A stretch of 64,000 bases of DNA from a phage, in the sequence record PX645697.1. One strand, given 5' to 3'. Below are positions 781 to 36,284 of the stretch, piece by piece. Position 1 is the stretch's first letter. Every line of letters starts with the position of its first letter. Below the pieces are notes generated by a model. That model had not been told where the DNA came from. It saw only the letters and a list, made by a program, of their open reading frames with translations, and made no database searches. A program made the translations under genes and the position numbers.

Positions 781-1342
781 TTTAATCAAAGCGATGGACC
801 TTAACGAGTATAATTCACAGCTGTGTCGCTCTGGCTGTAGCTTACAGCATTTAGAAACTATGGGAAATATTTCAGGACTGGCTGTACAAGATTTATATAG
901 TGGAAGTATTCTTAAACCAAATATTACGGAGAACAAAAACATGTTAGATTTGATTCATACTACTCGCCCTGATTCTAAAACTAAAACACAACCATCTACT
1001 CTGGAAGTAGTTGAATACGAGTCTACTAAACATGACCATCTCCCTGACTATGCTCGTGCAATGATCGAGATGATTGAAGAAGCTGAATATGAAATGCTCC
1101 ATGATTACATTACCTCCAAAGATGAGTGGCATCGCGATGTTAGAATCGAAGAGGATGGTACAGAAACAATTACGTGGATTCACAAGAGTGAGTTAGTAGA
1201 CGACGCACTGCGAGACTACGAAAAATTTTTGGTCGACGGCTCTATTCTTTTAGAGGAAGAGAAGGGTGTAGAACTTCCGTGGGAGGGTGAGATAGTTACT
1301 TTAGGTAAGATGTTTAATCTGTCCGTTGGTGATTGTAAGTAA
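773..1342 (+). CDS. hypothetical acidic protein (start refined from 698 to internal ATG 773)
   Basis: AAGGGAGA 5 nt upstream of ATG 773; followed by hairpin terminator. Confidence 0.5.
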   Translation: MNNLIKAMDLNEYNSQLCRSGCSLQHLETMGNISGLAVQDLYSGSILKPNITENKNMLDLIHTTRPDSKTKTQPSTLEVVEYESTKHDHLPDYARAMIEMIEEAEYEMLHDYITSKDEWHRDVRIEEDGTETITWIHKSELVDDALRDYEKFLVDGSILLEEEKGVELPWEGEIVTLGKMFNLSVGDCK

Positions 1343-1345
1343 TGT

Positions 1346-1372
1346 TTGCCTCCCTTGGGAGGCTTTTTGTGT
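1346..1372 (+). terminator. intrinsic terminator-like hairpin
   Basis: GCCTCCC..GGGAGGC stem followed by TTTTTGTGTTG. Confidence 0.5.
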
Positions 1373-1398
1373 TGTTGATAATGTAGAAGGAGTATAAA

Positions 1399-20363: not shown

Positions 20364-21398
20364 ATGGCATATGGAATATGGACAAGCCCGGTCGGTCCGG
20401 GTCCAGCGGCACCTGCTGACATTTACATTGACAGTGGTAGCACTTTCCCTCAACTCAGAAATAGAGTCAGTGGGAATTTCTCTTTTAGCGGAAATACCTG
20501 TGACTTGCCTATAAGCGGTTGGGATGGTAGCGGTCAGATAGTTGTAGTCCCAACAGGGTCTGTTGTTTGGGAGAGATACATACCTCCTAATGTAACATCT
20601 GATGTGTATTGGCTAACGGATATATCTGTTATTAATAACTCAACCTTCAGAGTTACTATGGACTATAACGTAAACGGTTGGGTATTTGATATGGCTTTTA
20701 ATGTATATCAAATATGGCCTAGAGCTAATAGGAACTATGGAATCACATTCTCCAACTCTGCTGACTATTTCTCAATCTCTGATTCTGGAGTTGTTGGTCA
20801 ATGTATTTGGGCTTGGGAAGGTGACATAAATGGCTCTCTTCAAATACCAGATATTGGAGGTTTTGATATGAGTCGAGCAACTGTCTATGCAAATTGGAGT
20901 AACGGCGGAGCAGGGCTACTATACAACCCATCTAATAGGGTTGTTTATGTGTACCAGAACAGATCTCATGATAATGGTAACACAAATCAAACAGGGTACA
21001 TTGGTGGTGTTAGGATTGCCGTATTCTGTGATGGTTCGGGAGTACCAACCCACAATGGAGGTTTAAATATCTTTTCTCCAAATGGGTCTCAGTGTGTTTT
21101 TTCTACATATAGAACCCCTTTTAGTGTTGAGGGATTTATGCCTATGAGTGGTGGTAACACATCTTTGGCCTATCCAATGATACCTCTATCTTATGGTGCT
21201 GGAGCAATAAGAGGTAAGGCTAGTGGTTGGTATTTTCAACACACAAGATCTCACATGATGAATGGCTCTTCTTTTGGTACAGGTTTCGGAAGGATGATTT
21301 ACTCTTGGAGTAGTCAATATGATTTAGGAGGGGGTGGTGCCCTCGGGTTAAGTATTCCAATATTAGATGCTAGAAAGATATTCAGGAGTATACAATAA
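20364..21398 (+). CDS. tail protein (possible receptor-binding/distal tail)
   Basis: 344-aa ORF tiled between tail genes; G/S/N-rich beta-like composition. Confidence 0.5.
   Translation: MAYGIWTSPVGPGPAAPADIYIDSGSTFPQLRNRVSGNFSFSGNTCDLPISGWDGSGQIVVVPTGSVVWERYIPPNVTSDVYWLTDISVINNSTFRVTMDYNVNGWVFDMAFNVYQIWPRANRNYGITFSNSADYFSISDSGVVGQCIWAWEGDINGSLQIPDIGGFDMSRATVYANWSNGGAGLLYNPSNRVVYVYQNRSHDNGNTNQTGYIGGVRIAVFCDGSGVPTHNGGLNIFSPNGSQCVFSTYRTPFSVEGFMPMSGGNTSLAYPMIPLSYGAGAIRGKASGWYFQHTRSHMMNGSSFGTGFGRMIYSWSSQYDLGGGGALGLSIPILDARKIFRSIQ
20699..20707 (+). promoter_or_regulatory. intragenic TAATGTATA occurrence (possible internal promoter or chance)
   Basis: exact 9-mer inside CDS 20364..21398. Confidence 0.2.
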
Positions 21399-25932: not shown

Positions 25933-25941
25933 TAATGTATA
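25933..25941 (+). promoter_or_regulatory. TAATGTATA promoter-like motif (embedded in TATAATGTATATA)
   Basis: exact 9-mer 38 nt upstream of ATG 25980; overlaps a TATAAT hexamer. Confidence 0.5.
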
Positions 25942-25979
25942 TAGGGGGTAGGACATTTTTATTTATAAAAGGAGACGTT

Positions 25980-28900
25980 ATGGCTAACATTAAACCGTGG
26001 GAAGAAGCTTCCAAAGCTCCTGCGTATCTGAATGCCTCTCCGGAGCAGCAAGCTCAAATGAGAGAACAATATAAGGCAGCAGGTGGCTCTATTCCTGAGG
26101 AACAGCCAGTAGCACAACCACAACAAGAAGAACGTGGTGTTATAGGTGAGTTTGCTCAAGGTGTGTCAAATGCTCTTCAATCTGGTGGTGCAAATATTGC
26201 AGCTAGTGCTGCTAAAGGTATTGGTGGTTTAGTTGAGATTGGTGAGAATCTAGCTGGAGCACAGACTAGTTATGGTAAGCGTATCCAAGAGAACTCTCAG
26301 AACCTTCTGAAAGAACGTATGGATAAGATTGAGGATGGGATTGGCAAAACTGTCGGTCAGTATGCTGGCGTTGCTGGTGATATCGGTTTGACAGTTGCTA
26401 ACCCATTGGCTGCTGCTGCTATCATCGCAGGTCGTGAGACAGGTCGTGCATATGCAGACCAAACCCCTGAAGAGGGGGAAGATAAGTCTATTCTAGATGC
26501 AGCCTTAGTTGGTGGTGCTAACTACGCGGCTATGAGAATCCTTCCGGGTGCTGTTGGTACAGCTGAGTCCACACTTGGACGTATTGGTCAGAACGTTGCT
26601 ACTAACGCAGTGGCTGGTGCTAAGGGCGGGGCTCTTATAGGTGCTGCTGAAGCTCAGAACAAGTATGGTGATGACAATGATCTAGCTAAGACATTGGAAG
26701 GTGTTATCGAAGAAGGAGCTATGGGTGCTGCATTTGGTGGTGCAGTTGGTGGGGTTCATGGTTTGATTAGCCGTCCGGATTCTGCTGTCTTCAGGAATAC
26801 TCCAGAGTATGCGAAGACTGATATTGCTGCTGATGATGAACTGATTCGTAGTGCTAAGAATATTGATGAGCTGAAAGAGGCTTACTCTAAAGCTGAAACT
26901 GCTAACGCTGCTTCTGCTCTGAACCTTCTCGATGAGAATGGATTCCGTATTACAGATGCTGTTGCTGTAGATTCTCCTGCTGCTCAGCGTATTCTTAATA
27001 CTGACCAAGCTCGTGCTGAGAAAGCTGCTTCTGTTCAGAAAGAACATTCCAACATTCCTGGCCTTAATCCTTTAGCTTCTCCTGCTAAAACTCGTGGTAA
27101 AGCTTTCGCTGATAATGAGCACAACCAGAAACAGGCTGTTGCTATGAAGGATGCAATGGCTGACTACACCAAGGATAATACTAAAACTCTTACAGATGTT
27201 CTAGATAACCTAGACCGTGAATTAACATCTCTCCGAGCTTCTGGTGATTTTACCGGTAGTCCGATTGACATTAAGAACCGTACGCAAGCTGACCGTGATT
27301 TCATTGATGCTTACAAGACTTTCTACAATGAAGCAAATCGATTCAAAGCTCGTGATGGGGAAGACTTTAATAACTTTGTAGAGAAAGCTACTGAACTACA
27401 GAAGATGGCTGATAATGTTTCTCCAGAGATGAAGAAAGCTATTGGTGGGTTGAAGAAACTGAAAGGTATGCCTGAAGGTTTTAATCCTATCCAAGATGCT
27501 TACACTCTGAACAATACAGCTAAATTCATGAGCAACCAAGATCGTGGCTGGACTTCCCTGACTGATGATGGCTTCCGTGAGGCTTCTTCACCTAGTCTGG
27601 TAATGAACACTCTTGGTGCTGCTAAATATGCTCTGAATCGCTTCTCTTCTCAGCGTGCTCGCTCTCAACGTGTTAAGCAACAAGAATCTAACAGTGAAGC
27701 TATCCGCTCTCTAGCTCGTGGTGATTTGGAAGTTGCTCGTGCTAAATCCGCTGCTGATGAAGCTCGCACTAAGATGGAAGAAGAACCAGCTGTTGATGAC
27801 ATTAATTTTAAGACGCAAAATGATGTGGAAACTGAACCGGTTCGGGAGCCTTCTTCTAGTACTGTGACGGGAGAAAATCTTCCTTCTTCTGCTCCTCAAG
27901 AAGCTCCTCTTACAGCTCGTGATTTAGTTGCTCAAAGACGTGCTATCCGTCAGGCTGAACAGCGTCGCGCTGAAGAAGAGGCATTGGCTGCTCAAGAAGC
28001 TCCGGTTGAACAGGCTCCACAAGCTGAACCTCTCCCTGCTCGTAATCCTTTAGAGGAGCGTCGTGTATTAGAGCAGCAACGTGCTCAAGAAGAGGGCCAA
28101 AAGGCTTCATCAGAGGATGCATCTTCTGTTACTAAAGAATCTCTCTCTCACTATGCTGAAGATGGGATACTTTCTCAAGATTTAAATGGCAACATTGCCC
28201 TTCGCCTAAATCAGTTCACCCCGGCTGAGCAACAGTTTTTGCGTAACCATAATTTGGTTGACTCAAATGATATGGTCAAAGCTAGTTCTCTAAGACAAGC
28301 TGATCCATTACCTACCCGTGCCCCTAAAGCTCCTAAAGAAGAGGTACAGGACGTTAAACCGGCAAGTGGTGTAGAACGTTTAGCTGCTATGTCTAGTGCT
28401 GCTCGTCAGGCTACTAAAGATCGTGCAGAACGCTTTGCTCGTTCTCTGTACTCTAAGGCTGCTAAGGCTAAAGCTACTGCTGAGAACTTCTTGTCTTACA
28501 AGGGTGATCCTAAGGAGTTGATGCGTCGTATTCGTCAGGAAGATAATGCTATCAACACTGAACGTCATGAAGAAATGGCTCGTAACCAGCTGGCTTCTCA
28601 GCAAGGTATTGCTACTGCTAAGAACAACACTGTACGAACTAACTTTGCTGAATGGGTTAAAGAACGTGGTCTGCCAGAAGACATTGCTACTAAGGCATTA
28701 CGTGCTGAAGAGAAAGGTTTAGGTGGGAACGTAACTAACTTGGATAGTCTGAAACGTCGTGCTGAAAGGTTGTATCAGAAGCAGCGTGAAGATGAGTTTG
28801 ATAGACTGTACCAACAAGCTCTAGAAGAGAATAAAGCTTTCGATAACAAGAATGCTCCTAAGCTGGTTGACCAGAAGAAAGAGTTTCAGTCTGAGATTGA

Positions 28901-34923: not shown

Positions 34924-34956
34924 CCAGAGGTGGCTAAGCTATAACAAGGAGAGTTA

Positions 34957-35703
34957 TTAGAATGGGCTATCGTTGTCGTCTTCGTAAGTAGAAGCAGGCT
35001 CTTTATCAATCGTAGGGATTGAAGGAGTAGCTTCTTTCTGCTCTGTTTCAGAAGCACGAGTAATTTCACGACCAGCCAGAGGCATGTTCTTAGCGTCATT
35101 AGCTTGAGTAAGCAGGTTGCGCTGGAACGGGAACATCAGTTGATAGGATGCTACGTTCTCATCGGTTTCAGCATACGGTTCGAAGAATACCAGAGGACTA
35201 CGAGCTTCACCAACTGCTGCACGATATTTAGTTGGGATTGGAGAAATGGTCTTGATGGAGTTTTTAACTTCACCAGCTTTGTTAGTGTAAGAGTTAACCA
35301 GAATGTTAACAGGCTGGCCTAACAGAACATCCTTGAACCAAGACAGATCACCTTTCAGCGCTTGAATACTTGGGTCAATCATCTTGCAAAGATCAAGAAT
35401 ACCAGAGTTCTTAGCTCGTGGGTTTACATCATAGCTCTTGAACTGGCAAGCCGGACGTGGTTCTAATGCCTTACCATCGGAATCTTTACCAGTAGCATCA
35501 ACACCAATCAGCTCGAAAGCTAAATCCATACGGAAAGCCGGACTCTTAGGAGTTACTGCTTTGGTCTTCGGGTCAATCCAAGGATCACGATTGTGAACAC
35601 CCAAACCTACTACACGAACAATACGTGCTTCGTATTCACCATCAGGGATTACATCGTAGTTGGATTTACGGGAAGCAGTTGCGATAGTTGGAATCATAGA
35701 CAT
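34957..35703 (-). CDS. single-stranded DNA-binding protein (T7 gp2.5-like) with acidic C-terminal tail ending in Phe
   Basis: 248 aa; C-terminus ...TYEDDNDSPF; optimised codon usage; sits beside putative origin region. Confidence 0.55.
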   Translation of the reverse strand: MSMIPTIATASRKSNYDVIPDGEYEARIVRVVGLGVHNRDPWIDPKTKAVTPKSPAFRMDLAFELIGVDATGKDSDGKALEPRPACQFKSYDVNPRAKNSGILDLCKMIDPSIQALKGDLSWFKDVLLGQPVNILVNSYTNKAGEVKNSIKTISPIPTKYRAAVGEARSPLVFFEPYAETDENVASYQLMFPFQRNLLTQANDAKNMPLAGREITRASETEQKEATPSIPTIDKEPASTYEDDNDSPF

Positions 35704-35762
35704 ATTGTAATTTCCTTATTTAATTTGAAAGATTGTTGCTCTCTTTGAGCGGTTATGTATAG

Positions 35763-35771
35763 TATACATTA
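35763..35771 (-). promoter_or_regulatory. TAATGTATA promoter-like motif upstream of SSB-like gene
   Basis: exact 9-mer on - strand about 59 nt upstream of ATG 35703. Confidence 0.5.
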
Positions 35772-35834
35772 CGCTTATACCGATAAGAGTACTATATAAT
35801 ATAAGTATCTTTGGTAGTAGATATAACACATTAG

Positions 35835-35843
35835 TAATGTATA
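35835..35843 (+). promoter_or_regulatory. TAATGTATA motif on + strand, divergent from the SSB promoter
   Basis: exact 9-mer; would drive rightward transcription antisense to - strand genes. Confidence 0.35.
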
Positions 35844-35939
35844 TATTGTATAGCTGATAAAGTTATTGCAGGCTTGTATATTGGGCAATTCACAGAATCC
35901 CTTGCAAGTACCGAAGGGCAGGAGCCACCTGCGAGATAA

Positions 35940-36005
35940 AAATAGAGAATTAAGGAATCCTTGATTTAGGTTGTAGGGACTCCTAGGGACTTTGATTCTC
36001 TATTT
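35940..36005. repeat. 11-bp perfect inverted repeat AAATAGAGAAT / ATTCTCTATTT with 44-nt spacer
   Basis: arms at 35940-35950 and 35995-36005; spacer holds sub-palindrome AAGGAATCCTT and direct repeat AGGGACT..AGGGACT; inside a 416-nt ORF-free AT-rich region. Confidence 0.6.
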
Positions 36006-36119
36006 AAAAGAATATTAATTACTTATTACCTAAATAATTAACTAACTTACTTAAACCAAATTCAAGAATAATAGATAAAAAGATTATTCCTAAGAAAGCT
36101 AAAAAGTAAATAATATAAG

Positions 36120-36284
36120 TTACCATTCAAGTAAACCTTTAAAGTTAGTTTGTTCTACTATCCTCTGATAACGAAGATTAGAATCAGCTTGTTTCTTTAA
36201 CATCTCATTATATTGATCTCTGATAGAGTCTTTATGTACTACAGGTTCTTTAAATAATGAGATCTTGTTCTTTTCTTCTTTCAT
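36120..36284 (-). CDS. small hypothetical protein (start refined)
   Basis: ORF overlapping the 3' end of the phosphoesterase gene in another frame. Confidence 0.3.
   Translation of the reverse strand: MKEEKNKISLFKEPVVHKDSIRDQYNEMLKKQADSNLRYQRIVEQTNFKGLLEW

What the first reader, a model, noticed from the sequence alone, without database searches (positions are those of the whole stretch)
35704..36119. ORF-free AT-rich region with 11-bp inverted repeat and divergent promoter motifs: candidate replication origin
This is the longest non-coding stretch in the window (416 nt). It contains two oppositely oriented TAATGTATA copies, a perfect 11-bp inverted repeat with a structured 44-nt spacer, and a TATAAT hexamer, and lies directly upstream of the SSB-like gene. 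The arrangement resembles phage primary origins where transcription primes replication.
Basis: inference. Interest (0 to 1): 0.55.

Follow-up and report, generated by a model that had tools for sequence, protein, structure and literature searches.

The report
Divergent phage promoters plus hidden small RNA
The gap upstream of the SSB-like gene of this phiEco32-like coliphage holds a published phage-sigma promoter, a second unlisted promoter facing the other way, and a conserved structured RNA of about 156 nt behind that second promoter; nothing here shows it is a replication origin.

Summary
The window is a Kuravirus (phiEco32-like) phage genome. TAATGTATA is the published promoter element of the phage sigma factor gp36. 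The minus-strand copy (35763-35771) is the published middle promoter P40 of the SSB-like gene.

The plus-strand copy (35835-35843) is not among the six published promoters. It carries the same upstream element, GGTAGTAGATA at the same N11 spacing, as published promoter P68. That places G at -37 and A at -34, the two bases gp36 contacts in the P68 cryo-EM structure.

Its predicted start, A35850, is the first base of a hairpin whose sequence varies but whose pairing is kept in all relatives. Behind it lies a ~156-nt element (35850-36005):
- no conserved ORF;
- folds better on the plus strand in 23 of 24 versions;
- shows compensatory changes;
- has a swappable middle domain;
- has a near-invariant 3' half, the most conserved stretch of the locus.

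On the minus strand that hairpin is followed by an invariant U-tract, so it probably also terminates the upstream operon.

The origin reading is untested. Only AT-richness and an orphan promoter speak for it. There is no Rfam match, and no transcript data were available.

The parts
34957..35703 (-). SSB-like gene (phi32_40 homolog), the gene served by P40
   Evidence: ORF. Annotated phi32_40 in phiEco32. AF2 model pLDDT 82.5, with top fold hits being OB-fold SSB/RPA/PriB proteins, all weak. Acidic C-terminal tail ending in F.
35704..35756 (-). Predicted 53-nt 5' UTR of the P40 transcript. It holds a conserved small hairpin (GCUC-AAAGA-GAGC, 35738-35750) and the SD AAGGAA (35712-35717).
   Evidence: The +1 is inferred from the published rule that the TSS lies 6-8 nt after the motif. 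The stretch is nearly invariant in 14 phages. Fold.
35763..35771 (-). TAATGTATA element of the published gp36-dependent middle promoter P40
   Evidence: The sequence aagcgTAATGTATActatacataaccgctcaaagagagcaa is identical to the SU10 'between CDS37 and CDS38' middle promoter. It is listed as P40 for phiEco32.
35795..35800 (+).
   Evidence: Not conserved among relatives. The sigma-70-like scan finds no more sites than shuffles do, 6 against 6.7.
35813..35823 (+). -35-type element GGTAGTAGATA of the plus-strand promoter; G35813 is -37 and A35816 is -34
   Evidence: There are only two exact copies in the window; the other sits at the same N11 spacing upstream of P68. gp36 CTD contacts -37G and -34A in the P68 cryo-EM structure. 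GGTAGT is kept at this spacing, plus or minus 1 nt, in all 24 unique versions.
35835..35843 (+). TAATGTATA element of a previously unlisted, divergent gp36-type promoter
   Evidence: Invariant in the 14 phage records. In metagenomic relatives it reads AATGTAT or AATGAAT. It is not among the six promoters listed.
35850..36005 (+). Candidate ~156-nt structured non-coding RNA. Layout: P1 hairpin 35850-35866, linker UUGCA, variable hairpin domain 35871-35909, linker, P3 hairpin 35918-35932, A-rich linker, long P4 hairpin 35940-36005.
   Evidence: MFE -45.8 kcal/mol, z=-2.3. The plus strand is more stable than the minus strand in 23 of 24 versions, by 6 kcal/mol on average. P1 starts at the predicted +1 in all 9 sequence variants. 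11 pairs show compensatory changes against 4.9 +/- 1.3 in shuffles, 0/500. The covariance model finds one copy per genome, on this strand only. No conserved ORF.
35933..36005 (-). Probable intrinsic terminator of the upstream middle operon: the same hairpin read on the minus strand, followed by UUUUUAUCU
   Evidence: Fold -18.8 kcal/mol. The minus-strand tail CUCUAUUUUUAUC is invariant in all versions, whereas the plus-strand tail is U-poor in many. Not called by the simple terminator scan because the loop is long.
36006..36126 (-). AT-rich tail (17.5% GC) overlapping the 35-aa phi32_41 homolog ORF (36019-36126)
   Evidence: Composition. ORF. Sequence is poorly conserved (54-56%) but AT-richness is kept in all relatives.

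Best explanation
The region is a transcription hub of a phiEco32-like phage, not a demonstrated origin.

Shown or published: the minus-strand TAATGTATA is the gp36 (phage sigma) middle promoter P40. It drives the SSB-like gene through a conserved 53-nt leader.

Inferred from sequence: the plus-strand TAATGTATA, together with GGTAGTAGATA 11 nt upstream, is a second gp36 promoter of the P68 type. From the middle phase on, host RNAP carrying gp36 (activated by gp79) should start at about A35850. It would then transcribe, against the flow of the middle genes, a ~156-nt non-coding RNA.

That RNA begins with a hairpin at +1 and ends with a long hairpin. Both are features that protect an RNA from decay. 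Between them it carries an exchangeable hairpin domain and a near-invariant 3' half.

The long 3' hairpin is shared with the opposite strand. There an invariant U-tract follows it, so it most likely stops transcription of the upstream operon just before P40.

My best guess for function is that the RNA accumulates and works as an RNA, by binding a conserved protein or RNA partner. The partner is unknown.
For: Identity of the phage: 98.8% to Escherichia phage MN03, and 99 Kuravirus-type records match.

Promoter motif and P40.

P68-type architecture of the plus copy: there are two exact GGTAGTAGATA copies in 64 kb, both 11 nt upstream of WAATGTATA. The bases -37G and -34A contacted by gp36 are present. 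A at -34 is present in 7 of the 8 motif copies and absent only from the intragenic copy at 20699.

Linkage: a ~145-nt insertion in EcP-vB-type phages separates P40 from the plus promoter, and the plus promoter stays with the RNA.

RNA structure:
- P1 begins at the predicted +1 in 9 different sequence variants.
- P3 changes GCAGG/CCUGC to GCUGG/CCAGC in L036.
- On 22 sequences, 98.3% of cells are paired and 11 pairs have changes on both sides, against 4.9 +/- 1.3 in shuffles (0/500) and at most 4 in slid controls.
- Invariant G.U pairs in P2 and P4, and a frequent one in P1, would be A.C mismatches on the minus strand.
- The plus strand folds 6 kcal/mol better on average.

Conservation: 35904-35993 is 94-99.7% identical, above the flanking coding DNA at 78-96%. 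The element persists in phages whose SSB-like protein is only 71% identical.

Local GC skew is +0.19, like plus-strand genes, inside a minus-gene half at -0.11.

The only ORF through the conserved part is broken in type B, and the paired changes in L036 would be radical substitutions in it.
Against: No transcript, TSS or 3' end has been observed. I could not read Pavlova et al. 2012, which may mention this promoter.

The plus-strand 3' tail is a poor U-tract (UAUUUAAAA, or UAAUUAAAA in some versions), so termination of the RNA at P4 is uncertain. Read-through antisense to genes 41-43 is possible.

Most helices (P4, most of P3) never vary, so they carry no covariation evidence. The 22-sequence alignment was fitted to the model's structure, which inflates the pairing counts.

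In the L037-type relatives the -10 motif reads AATGAA rather than AATGTA.

No target or partner was found, and there is no Rfam family.
Confidence: 0.6

Rival explanations
1. Transcript-primed replication origin. The orphan plus-strand gp36 promoter makes an RNA that invades or stays hybridised in the AT-rich tract just downstream (36006-36100). That RNA then primes leading-strand synthesis, as at the T7 primary origin or T4 oriF/oriG. The conserved folds would control R-loop formation, as in ColE1 RNA II.
For: The promoter has no ORF to serve. It points at the AT-richest 100 nt of the whole window, 35989-36088 at 17% GC. AT-richness of 17-27% GC is kept downstream of the hairpin in all relatives despite sequence turnover. 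The RNA strand is G-rich with GGG clusters. The locus lies among replication genes: the SSB-like gene and, 3 kb away, the family A polymerase.
Against: No iterons and no DnaA boxes in the region, and no skew switch. The AT-rich tract is the least conserved part and largely overlaps an annotated 35-aa ORF. AT-rich spacers are common in this genome. A stable 16-bp-plus hairpin lies between promoter and AT tract. Selection for a hairpin at +1 and an invariant 90-nt 3' half is not needed for simple priming. There is no experimental origin mapping for any Kuravirus in the searched literature.
Confidence: 0.15
2. There is no plus-strand RNA of its own. The plus TAATGTATA is a silent or fortuitous copy. 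The conserved block would then be minus-strand sequence: the 3' UTR and terminator of the gene-41 operon, plus DNA sites that regulate P40.
For: The minus-strand U-tract after the hairpin is invariant while the plus-strand tail is not. Most of the conserved block shows no covariation because it never varies. The same lab lists only six gp36 promoters. An intragenic TAATGTATA at 20699 shows that the 9-mer can occur without obvious function.
Against: The plus copy has the full P68-type -35 element at the right spacing, unlike the intragenic copy. Both elements are kept in relatives down to 71% SSB identity. P1 starts exactly at the predicted +1 in 9 variants, and in the commonest variants it cannot form on the minus strand. 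The G.U pairs of P2 and P4 become A.C on the minus strand. The minus-strand consensus fold is about 9-10 kcal/mol weaker. An insertion separates the plus promoter from P40 but never from the RNA.
Confidence: 0.15
3. The plus-strand transcript acts only in cis, as an antisense or insulator element. Convergent transcription and pairing with read-through minus transcripts would block or destroy RNA that escapes the terminator. Gene 40 would then depend on P40 alone, and genes 41-43 might be damped late in infection.
For: The RNA is fully complementary to any minus-strand read-through. The plus-strand 3' tail is a weak terminator, so antisense transcription into genes 41-43 is likely. No trans target was found.
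Against: Interference needs no conserved fold. It does not explain the compensatory changes in P1, P2 and P3, or the exchange of whole hairpin domains with the flanks kept.
Confidence: 0.1

Closest known systems
phiEco32 gp36-dependent middle promoters P40 and P68 (Pavlova et al. 2012; Lavysh et al. 2022, PMC8948821; cryo-EM of P68, PMC12276001)
   Same: The minus copy is P40 itself; its sequence is identical to the SU10 entry. The plus copy shares with P68 the element WAATGTATA, the upstream GGTAGTAGATA at N11 spacing, and the contacted bases -37G and -34A.
   Different: The plus copy is not in the published list of six promoters. It points away from all genes, and what follows it is a structured non-coding element, not an RBS and ORF.
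T7 primary origin (promoters phi1.1A/1.1B plus an AT-rich region) and T4 oriF/oriG (middle promoter plus unwinding element). This comparison rests on my own knowledge of the field.
   Same: A phage-specific promoter is followed downstream by a very AT-rich tract, near replication genes.
   Different: A conserved 156-nt folded RNA with a long hairpin lies between promoter and AT tract. The AT tract is not conserved in sequence and overlaps an ORF. No initiation data exist.
Bidirectional intrinsic terminators between convergent transcription units. This comparison rests on my own knowledge of the field.
   Same: One hairpin is flanked by an A-tract on one side and a T-tract on the other, and is shared by two converging transcripts.
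   Different: The stem is AT-rich (3 G-C in the 11-bp base) and encloses 44 nt of further structure. The U-tract is good on the minus strand only.
Phage-encoded small RNAs with their own promoter, such as lambda OOP and T4 band C/D RNAs, and the Rfam DUF2815 RNA upstream of phage SSB-like genes
   Same: Short, non-coding, phage-borne, and next to a replication gene.
   Different: There is no sequence or structure match to any Rfam family. The DUF2815 match lies in the gene-40 leader at 14.8 bits against a 41.2 cut-off, and lacks the family's hairpin. Here the promoter is read by a phage-encoded sigma factor.

Membership tests
gp36-dependent promoter of phiEco32-like phages | Consensus element tAATGTAtA | tested here: met
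   Exact TAATGTATA on both strands, 35763-35771 (-) and 35835-35843 (+). Consensus.
gp36-dependent promoter of phiEco32-like phages | -35 region read by gp36 CTD (-37G and -34A in P68) | tested here: met
   The plus copy has G35813 at -37 and A35816 at -34 within GGTAGTAGATA, identical to P68. P40 has A at -37 and A at -34.
gp36-dependent promoter of phiEco32-like phages | Lies upstream of a middle or late gene | tested here: not met
   This is met for the minus copy (gene 40). The plus copy has no conserved ORF downstream on its strand.
gp36-dependent promoter of phiEco32-like phages | Transcript 5' end 6-8 nt downstream; initiation by RNAP-gp36 in vitro | not testable with these tools
   Published for P40 in phiEco32 (cited). 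There are no data for the plus copy.
Transcript-primed phage origin (T7 primary origin / T4 oriF type) | Phage-specific promoter directed into an AT-rich unwinding region | tested here: inconclusive
   Promoter motif and the AT-richest tract of the window are present. They are separated by a folded 156-nt element, and the tract is not sequence-conserved.
Transcript-primed phage origin (T7 primary origin / T4 oriF type) | DNA synthesis starts there | not testable with these tools
   No marker-frequency or replication-intermediate data are available.
Theta-type origin with initiator sites | Iterons or DnaA boxes next to an AT-rich region | tested here: not met
   No DnaA box lies in 35704-36119. 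The only direct repeats are one UAGGGACU duplication inside P4 (read) and the short, probably chance pairs.
Intrinsic (Rho-independent) terminator | Stable stem-loop directly followed by a U-tract | tested here: inconclusive
   On the minus strand there is an 11-bp stem plus inner structure at -18.8 kcal/mol, followed by UUUUUAUCU, which is invariant. The stem is AT-rich with a 44-nt interior and is not called by the scan. The plus-strand tail has only 2-4 U.
Structured non-coding RNA gene | Conserved secondary structure supported by compensatory changes, strand-specific | tested here: met
   11 pairs have changes on both sides against 4.9 +/- 1.3 in shuffles, 0/500 (the alignment was fitted to the model). 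There are 9 P1 variants. The plus strand is more stable than the minus in 23 of 24 versions.
Structured non-coding RNA gene | A transcript is detected | not testable with these tools
   No Kuravirus transcriptome was found in the library.
Any Rfam 15 family | Score at or above the gathering threshold | tested here: not met
   0 matches at gathering thresholds in the window. The best sub-threshold match in the region has E=0.66.

The most novel reading that the evidence does not exclude
The plus-strand RNA is a folded replication primer or origin regulator. An orphan promoter read by the phage's own sigma factor would make an RNA II-like transcript. Its conserved hairpins would decide whether it forms an R-loop in the adjacent AT-richest tract and starts phage DNA synthesis. 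That would give phiEco32-like phages an origin directly timed by the gp36/gp79 switch.
Probability: 0.12. Interest if true: 0.7.

Novelty: new member of a known kind. Interest (0 to 1): 0.45.

Why it matters
phiEco32 is a model for how a phage-encoded sigma factor (gp36) and its co-factor gp79 reprogram E. coli RNA polymerase. Its promoter set is thought to be complete at six. A seventh, P68-like promoter that makes a conserved non-coding RNA would add a new output to that switch. It would also be the first candidate regulatory RNA in the Gordonclarkvirinae, a group widely isolated for phage therapy.

The locus gives a clean test case: one promoter, one ~156-nt product, and natural domain-swap variants. 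It also matters for annotation. About a hundred deposited genomes match this locus, and none of the 40 sampled in the hit table carries an RNA feature here. If the RNA instead primes replication, the long-unknown origin of these phages would be located.

Tried and rejected
- Rfam at gathering and at permissive thresholds found no family. tRNA/tmRNA scan found none.
- Coding potential is rejected. The 32-aa plus-strand ORF 35866-35964 is interrupted by a stop in type-B relatives, and the paired changes in L036 would be radical in it. The minus-strand 37-aa ORFs lie in the variable, indel-rich spacer.
- A sigma-70 promoter at the TATAAT is rejected: it is not conserved, and the scan finds no more sites than shuffles do.
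- Host mimicry or a host antisense target: no blastn match in 5,426 E. coli genomes at E<=10.
- Target within the phage: only chance-level 9-11-mers. Duplex scan against 159 translation-initiation regions gave a best energy within the range of shuffled RNAs.
- A CsrA-sponge idea was dropped. I counted 4 GGA motifs by eye against about 2.7 expected from my own rough estimate, so there is no enrichment.
- More distant homologs: two IMG/VR scans found only 5 known genomes, one metagenome scan found 6, and GTDB genomes gave 0. The covariance model finds no copy in L008-L010, L044 or L045 and no second copy in the window.
- The single-sequence AF2 model of the SSB-like protein was useless at pLDDT 37.
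- Pavlova 2012 and Savalia 2008 are not held in the library.
- One literature search was mis-specified and uninformative.

Full report
WHAT THE WINDOW IS

The 2.1 kb around the finding is 98.8% identical to Escherichia phage MN03. It matches 99 phage records, all phiEco32-like (Kuravirus and its sister genera). Late genes run on the plus strand up to about 30.6 kb. Middle and early genes run on the minus strand after that.

The finding lies between the homologs of phi32_40 (34957-35703, minus) and phi32_41 (36019-36126, minus, 35 aa).

CHECK OF THE OBSERVATION

All listed features are real.
- The 416-nt stretch is the longest one free of coding-strand ORFs of at least 50 aa. It does include the small annotated gene 41 homolog (PHROG 24970, E=1.7e-24), so the unannotated gap is 315 nt.
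- GC is 29.3% against 42.3% for the window. The value is uneven: 41% in 35850-36005 and 17.5% in 36006-36119.
- 35989-36088 is the AT-richest 100 nt of the window.
- The two TAATGTATA copies, the 11-bp inverted repeat with its 44-nt spacer, and the TATAAT are at the stated places.
- The TATAAT is not conserved in relatives.
- 'SSB-like' is plausible. An AF2 model built with 30 homologs (pLDDT 82.5) retrieves mainly OB-fold SSB, RPA and PriB structures, though weakly. The protein ends in an acidic tail with a terminal Phe. Sequence searches alone give no name.

THE TWO TAATGTATA COPIES ARE PHAGE-SIGMA PROMOTER ELEMENTS

The literature gives tAATGTAtA as the single consensus element of the six middle and late promoters read by host RNAP carrying the phage sigma factor gp36. 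Transcription starts 6-8 nt downstream (PMC8948821; PMC4281155). The six are P6, P13, P26, P40, P58 and P68.

The minus copy here, with its flanks, is letter-for-letter the SU10 middle promoter 'between CDS37 and CDS38'. It is therefore P40. Its predicted +1 is A35756, giving a 53-nt leader that is almost invariant among 14 phages.

The window holds 6 exact copies of the 9-mer against 0.71 expected. With the variants TAATGTAGA and AAATGTATA there are 8 copies, and they map onto the published promoters plus two extras. One extra is intragenic, at 20699. The other is the plus copy at 35835.

THE PLUS COPY LOOKS LIKE A REAL PROMOTER OF THE P68 TYPE

Exactly two GGTAGTAGATA 11-mers occur in the window. 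One lies 11 nt upstream of the P68 element and the other 11 nt upstream of the plus copy.

In the cryo-EM structure of the gp79/gp36 open complex on P68, gp36 NTD reads -14A, -13A, -12T and -11G. Its CTD reads -37G and -34A, and mutating these bases abolishes transcription (PMC12276001). Numbering the plus copy the same way puts +1 at A35850, G at -37 (35813) and A at -34 (35816).

A at -34 is present in 7 of the 8 motif copies. Only the intragenic one lacks it.

Both elements are kept in all 24 distinct versions of the locus that I collected. These include metagenomic relatives whose SSB-like protein is only 71% identical. In those relatives the spacing shifts by 1 nt and the -10 motif reads AATGTAT or AATGAAT.

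In EcP-vB-type phages a ~145-nt insertion carrying a small ORF separates P40 from the plus promoter. The plus promoter stays attached to what lies downstream of it.

None of the accessible papers lists this promoter. I could not obtain Pavlova et al. 2012.

WHAT LIES DOWNSTREAM OF THE PLUS PROMOTER

There is no conserved ORF there. Instead there is a ~156-nt element, 35850-36005, with this layout:
- P1: a 5-7-bp hairpin.
- Linker UUGCA.
- A hairpin domain that comes in at least four unrelated or partly related versions. The window has type A, MN05/ECBP2/EcP-vB have type B, and types C and D occur in metagenomic relatives.
- Linker ACCGAAGG.
- P3: GCAGG-AGMCA-CCUGC.
- An A-rich linker, GAGAUAAAAAU.

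Evidence that this is an RNA, and on the plus strand:
1. P1 begins at the first or second nucleotide after the predicted +1 in all nine sequence variants, although their sequences differ. Examples are AUAGCU/AGUUAU, AGAGUU/AACUCU, AUCUCU/AGAGGU and ACAUC/GAUGU.
2. In the commonest variants P1 contains a G.U pair and does not fold at all on the minus strand.
3. P3 changes A-U to U-A in L036. That change breaks the alternative long-range pairing with UUGCA and so favours the local hairpin.
4. The invariant G.U pairs in the base of the type-A domain and in P4 would be A.C on the other strand.
5. Whole-element MFE is lower on the plus strand in 23 of 24 versions, by 6.0 kcal/mol on average. The consensus folds agree.
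6. On a 22-sequence alignment made with a covariance model, 98.3% of cells pair. 11 of 43 pairs have changes on both sides, against 4.9 +/- 1.3 in shuffles (0/500) and at most 4 when partners are slid. That alignment was fitted to the structure and so leans towards it. The independent MAFFT alignment of 11 type-A sequences gives 2 such pairs, both in P1 (20/500 shuffles reach 2), and a covariation score that 0/500 shuffles reach.
7. The model finds one strong hit per genome (108-206 bits), always on this strand. It finds nothing in the rest of the window.
8. The element has GC skew +0.19, like plus-strand genes, inside a half-genome at -0.11.

Conservation is highest in 35904-35993, at 94-99.7% column identity. 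That exceeds the neighbouring coding DNA (78-96%). It drops to 54-56% in the AT-rich tail.

THE HAIRPIN ON THE OTHER STRAND

Read on the minus strand, the same inverted repeat gives an 11-bp stem with inner structure (-18.8 kcal/mol) followed by UUUUUAUCU. That U-tract is invariant in every version. The plus-strand tail varies and is U-poor, reading UAUUUAAAA, UAUUAAAAUC or UAAUUAAAAC.

I therefore take the hairpin to be also the intrinsic terminator of the upstream middle operon, ending just before P40. The plus-strand 3' end may arise by weak termination or by trimming back to P4. Some read-through antisense to genes 41-43 is likely. This part is inference, and the simple terminator scan does not call the site.

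ORIGIN HYPOTHESIS

Three things speak for it. The promoter is an orphan one. It points at the AT-richest tract of the window. That AT-richness persists in all relatives despite sequence turnover. This is the logic of the T7 primary origin and of T4 oriF/oriG, a comparison I make from my own knowledge.

Several things speak against it, or are at least unhelpful:
- There are no iterons or DnaA boxes in the region.
- There is no skew switch. The cumulative skew turns at about 30.6 kb, where gene orientation flips.
- The AT tract overlaps an ORF and is the least conserved part.
- A conserved, stable fold sits between promoter and AT tract.
- No replication data exist for these phages in the library.

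I keep it as a rival at about 0.15.

FUNCTION OF THE RNA

Function is unknown. Searches for a base-pairing target in the phage window, at translation starts and in E. coli genomes gave nothing above chance. No Rfam family matches.

The design suggests a stable RNA that works through a conserved partner. It has a hairpin at +1, a strong 3' hairpin, an invariant 3' half and a swappable middle domain. That is my best guess, held with low confidence. A purely cis antisense or insulator role is a further rival.

VERDICT

The origin claim is unsupported.

The new content is a probable seventh gp36 promoter and a conserved structured RNA candidate that sampled deposited genomes do not annotate. I class it as a new member of a known kind (a phage-encoded small RNA), of moderate interest. 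One Northern blot or one in vitro transcription assay would test it.

Noticed in passing
window 25933-25982: The late promoter element TAATGTATA (P26 homolog) contains the ATG that a mechanical ORF call takes as the start of the 1541-aa gene (25935). The real start is more likely ATG 25980, behind the SD AAGGAG.
   Followed up: partly
window 20699-20707 (+): An intragenic exact TAATGTATA lies inside the 344-aa ORF 20364-21398. It is the only one of 8 motif copies without A at -34, so it is probably not a promoter.
   Followed up: partly
L001 558-971 and L002 559-972 (SU10, WFI101126); absent from window near 34930: Several relatives carry an HNH homing-endonuclease gene immediately downstream of the SSB-like gene. 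The window does not. L042 has an HNH_3 gene overlapping the end of its SSB-like gene.
   Followed up: no
L016 486-629; also L004, L046: A ~145-nt insertion with a 47-aa minus-strand ORF sits between the two divergent promoters in EcP-vB-type phages. How that ORF is transcribed is unclear, because it lies downstream of the putative terminator and upstream of P40.
   Followed up: no
L008, L009, L010 (about 60-170 nt upstream of the SSB-like gene start at 2501), L045: More distant relatives (SSB-like protein 63-70% identical) lack the RNA. Upstream of the same gene they share a different conserved element, GCATCTAGCAAAGCTAGCATATCAAAGCTAAGCTAAGCTATATGCTT.
   Followed up: no
window 35701-35742 (-): There is a weak Rfam match to the DUF2815 RNA, a motif found upstream of phage SSB-like genes, in the leader of gene 40. 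It scores 14.8 bits against a 41.2 cut-off, covers only the AU-rich/SD part, and lacks the family hairpin.
   Followed up: yes
window 35856-35860 and 35935-39; loops of variable domains in L013, L037, L036: The pentamer GAUAA recurs in exposed parts of the RNA: the P1 loop, the linker before P4, and loops of domain types B and C. Inside P4, UAGGGACU is duplicated, and both copies lose a G together in the short-hairpin variants. Unexplained.
   Followed up: no
window 1334-1387 (+): The P6-type element TAATGTAGA (1379) is directly preceded by a GC-rich hairpin plus T-run (gcctcccttgggaggcttttt). That gives a terminator-then-promoter arrangement like the one proposed for the studied locus.
   Followed up: no
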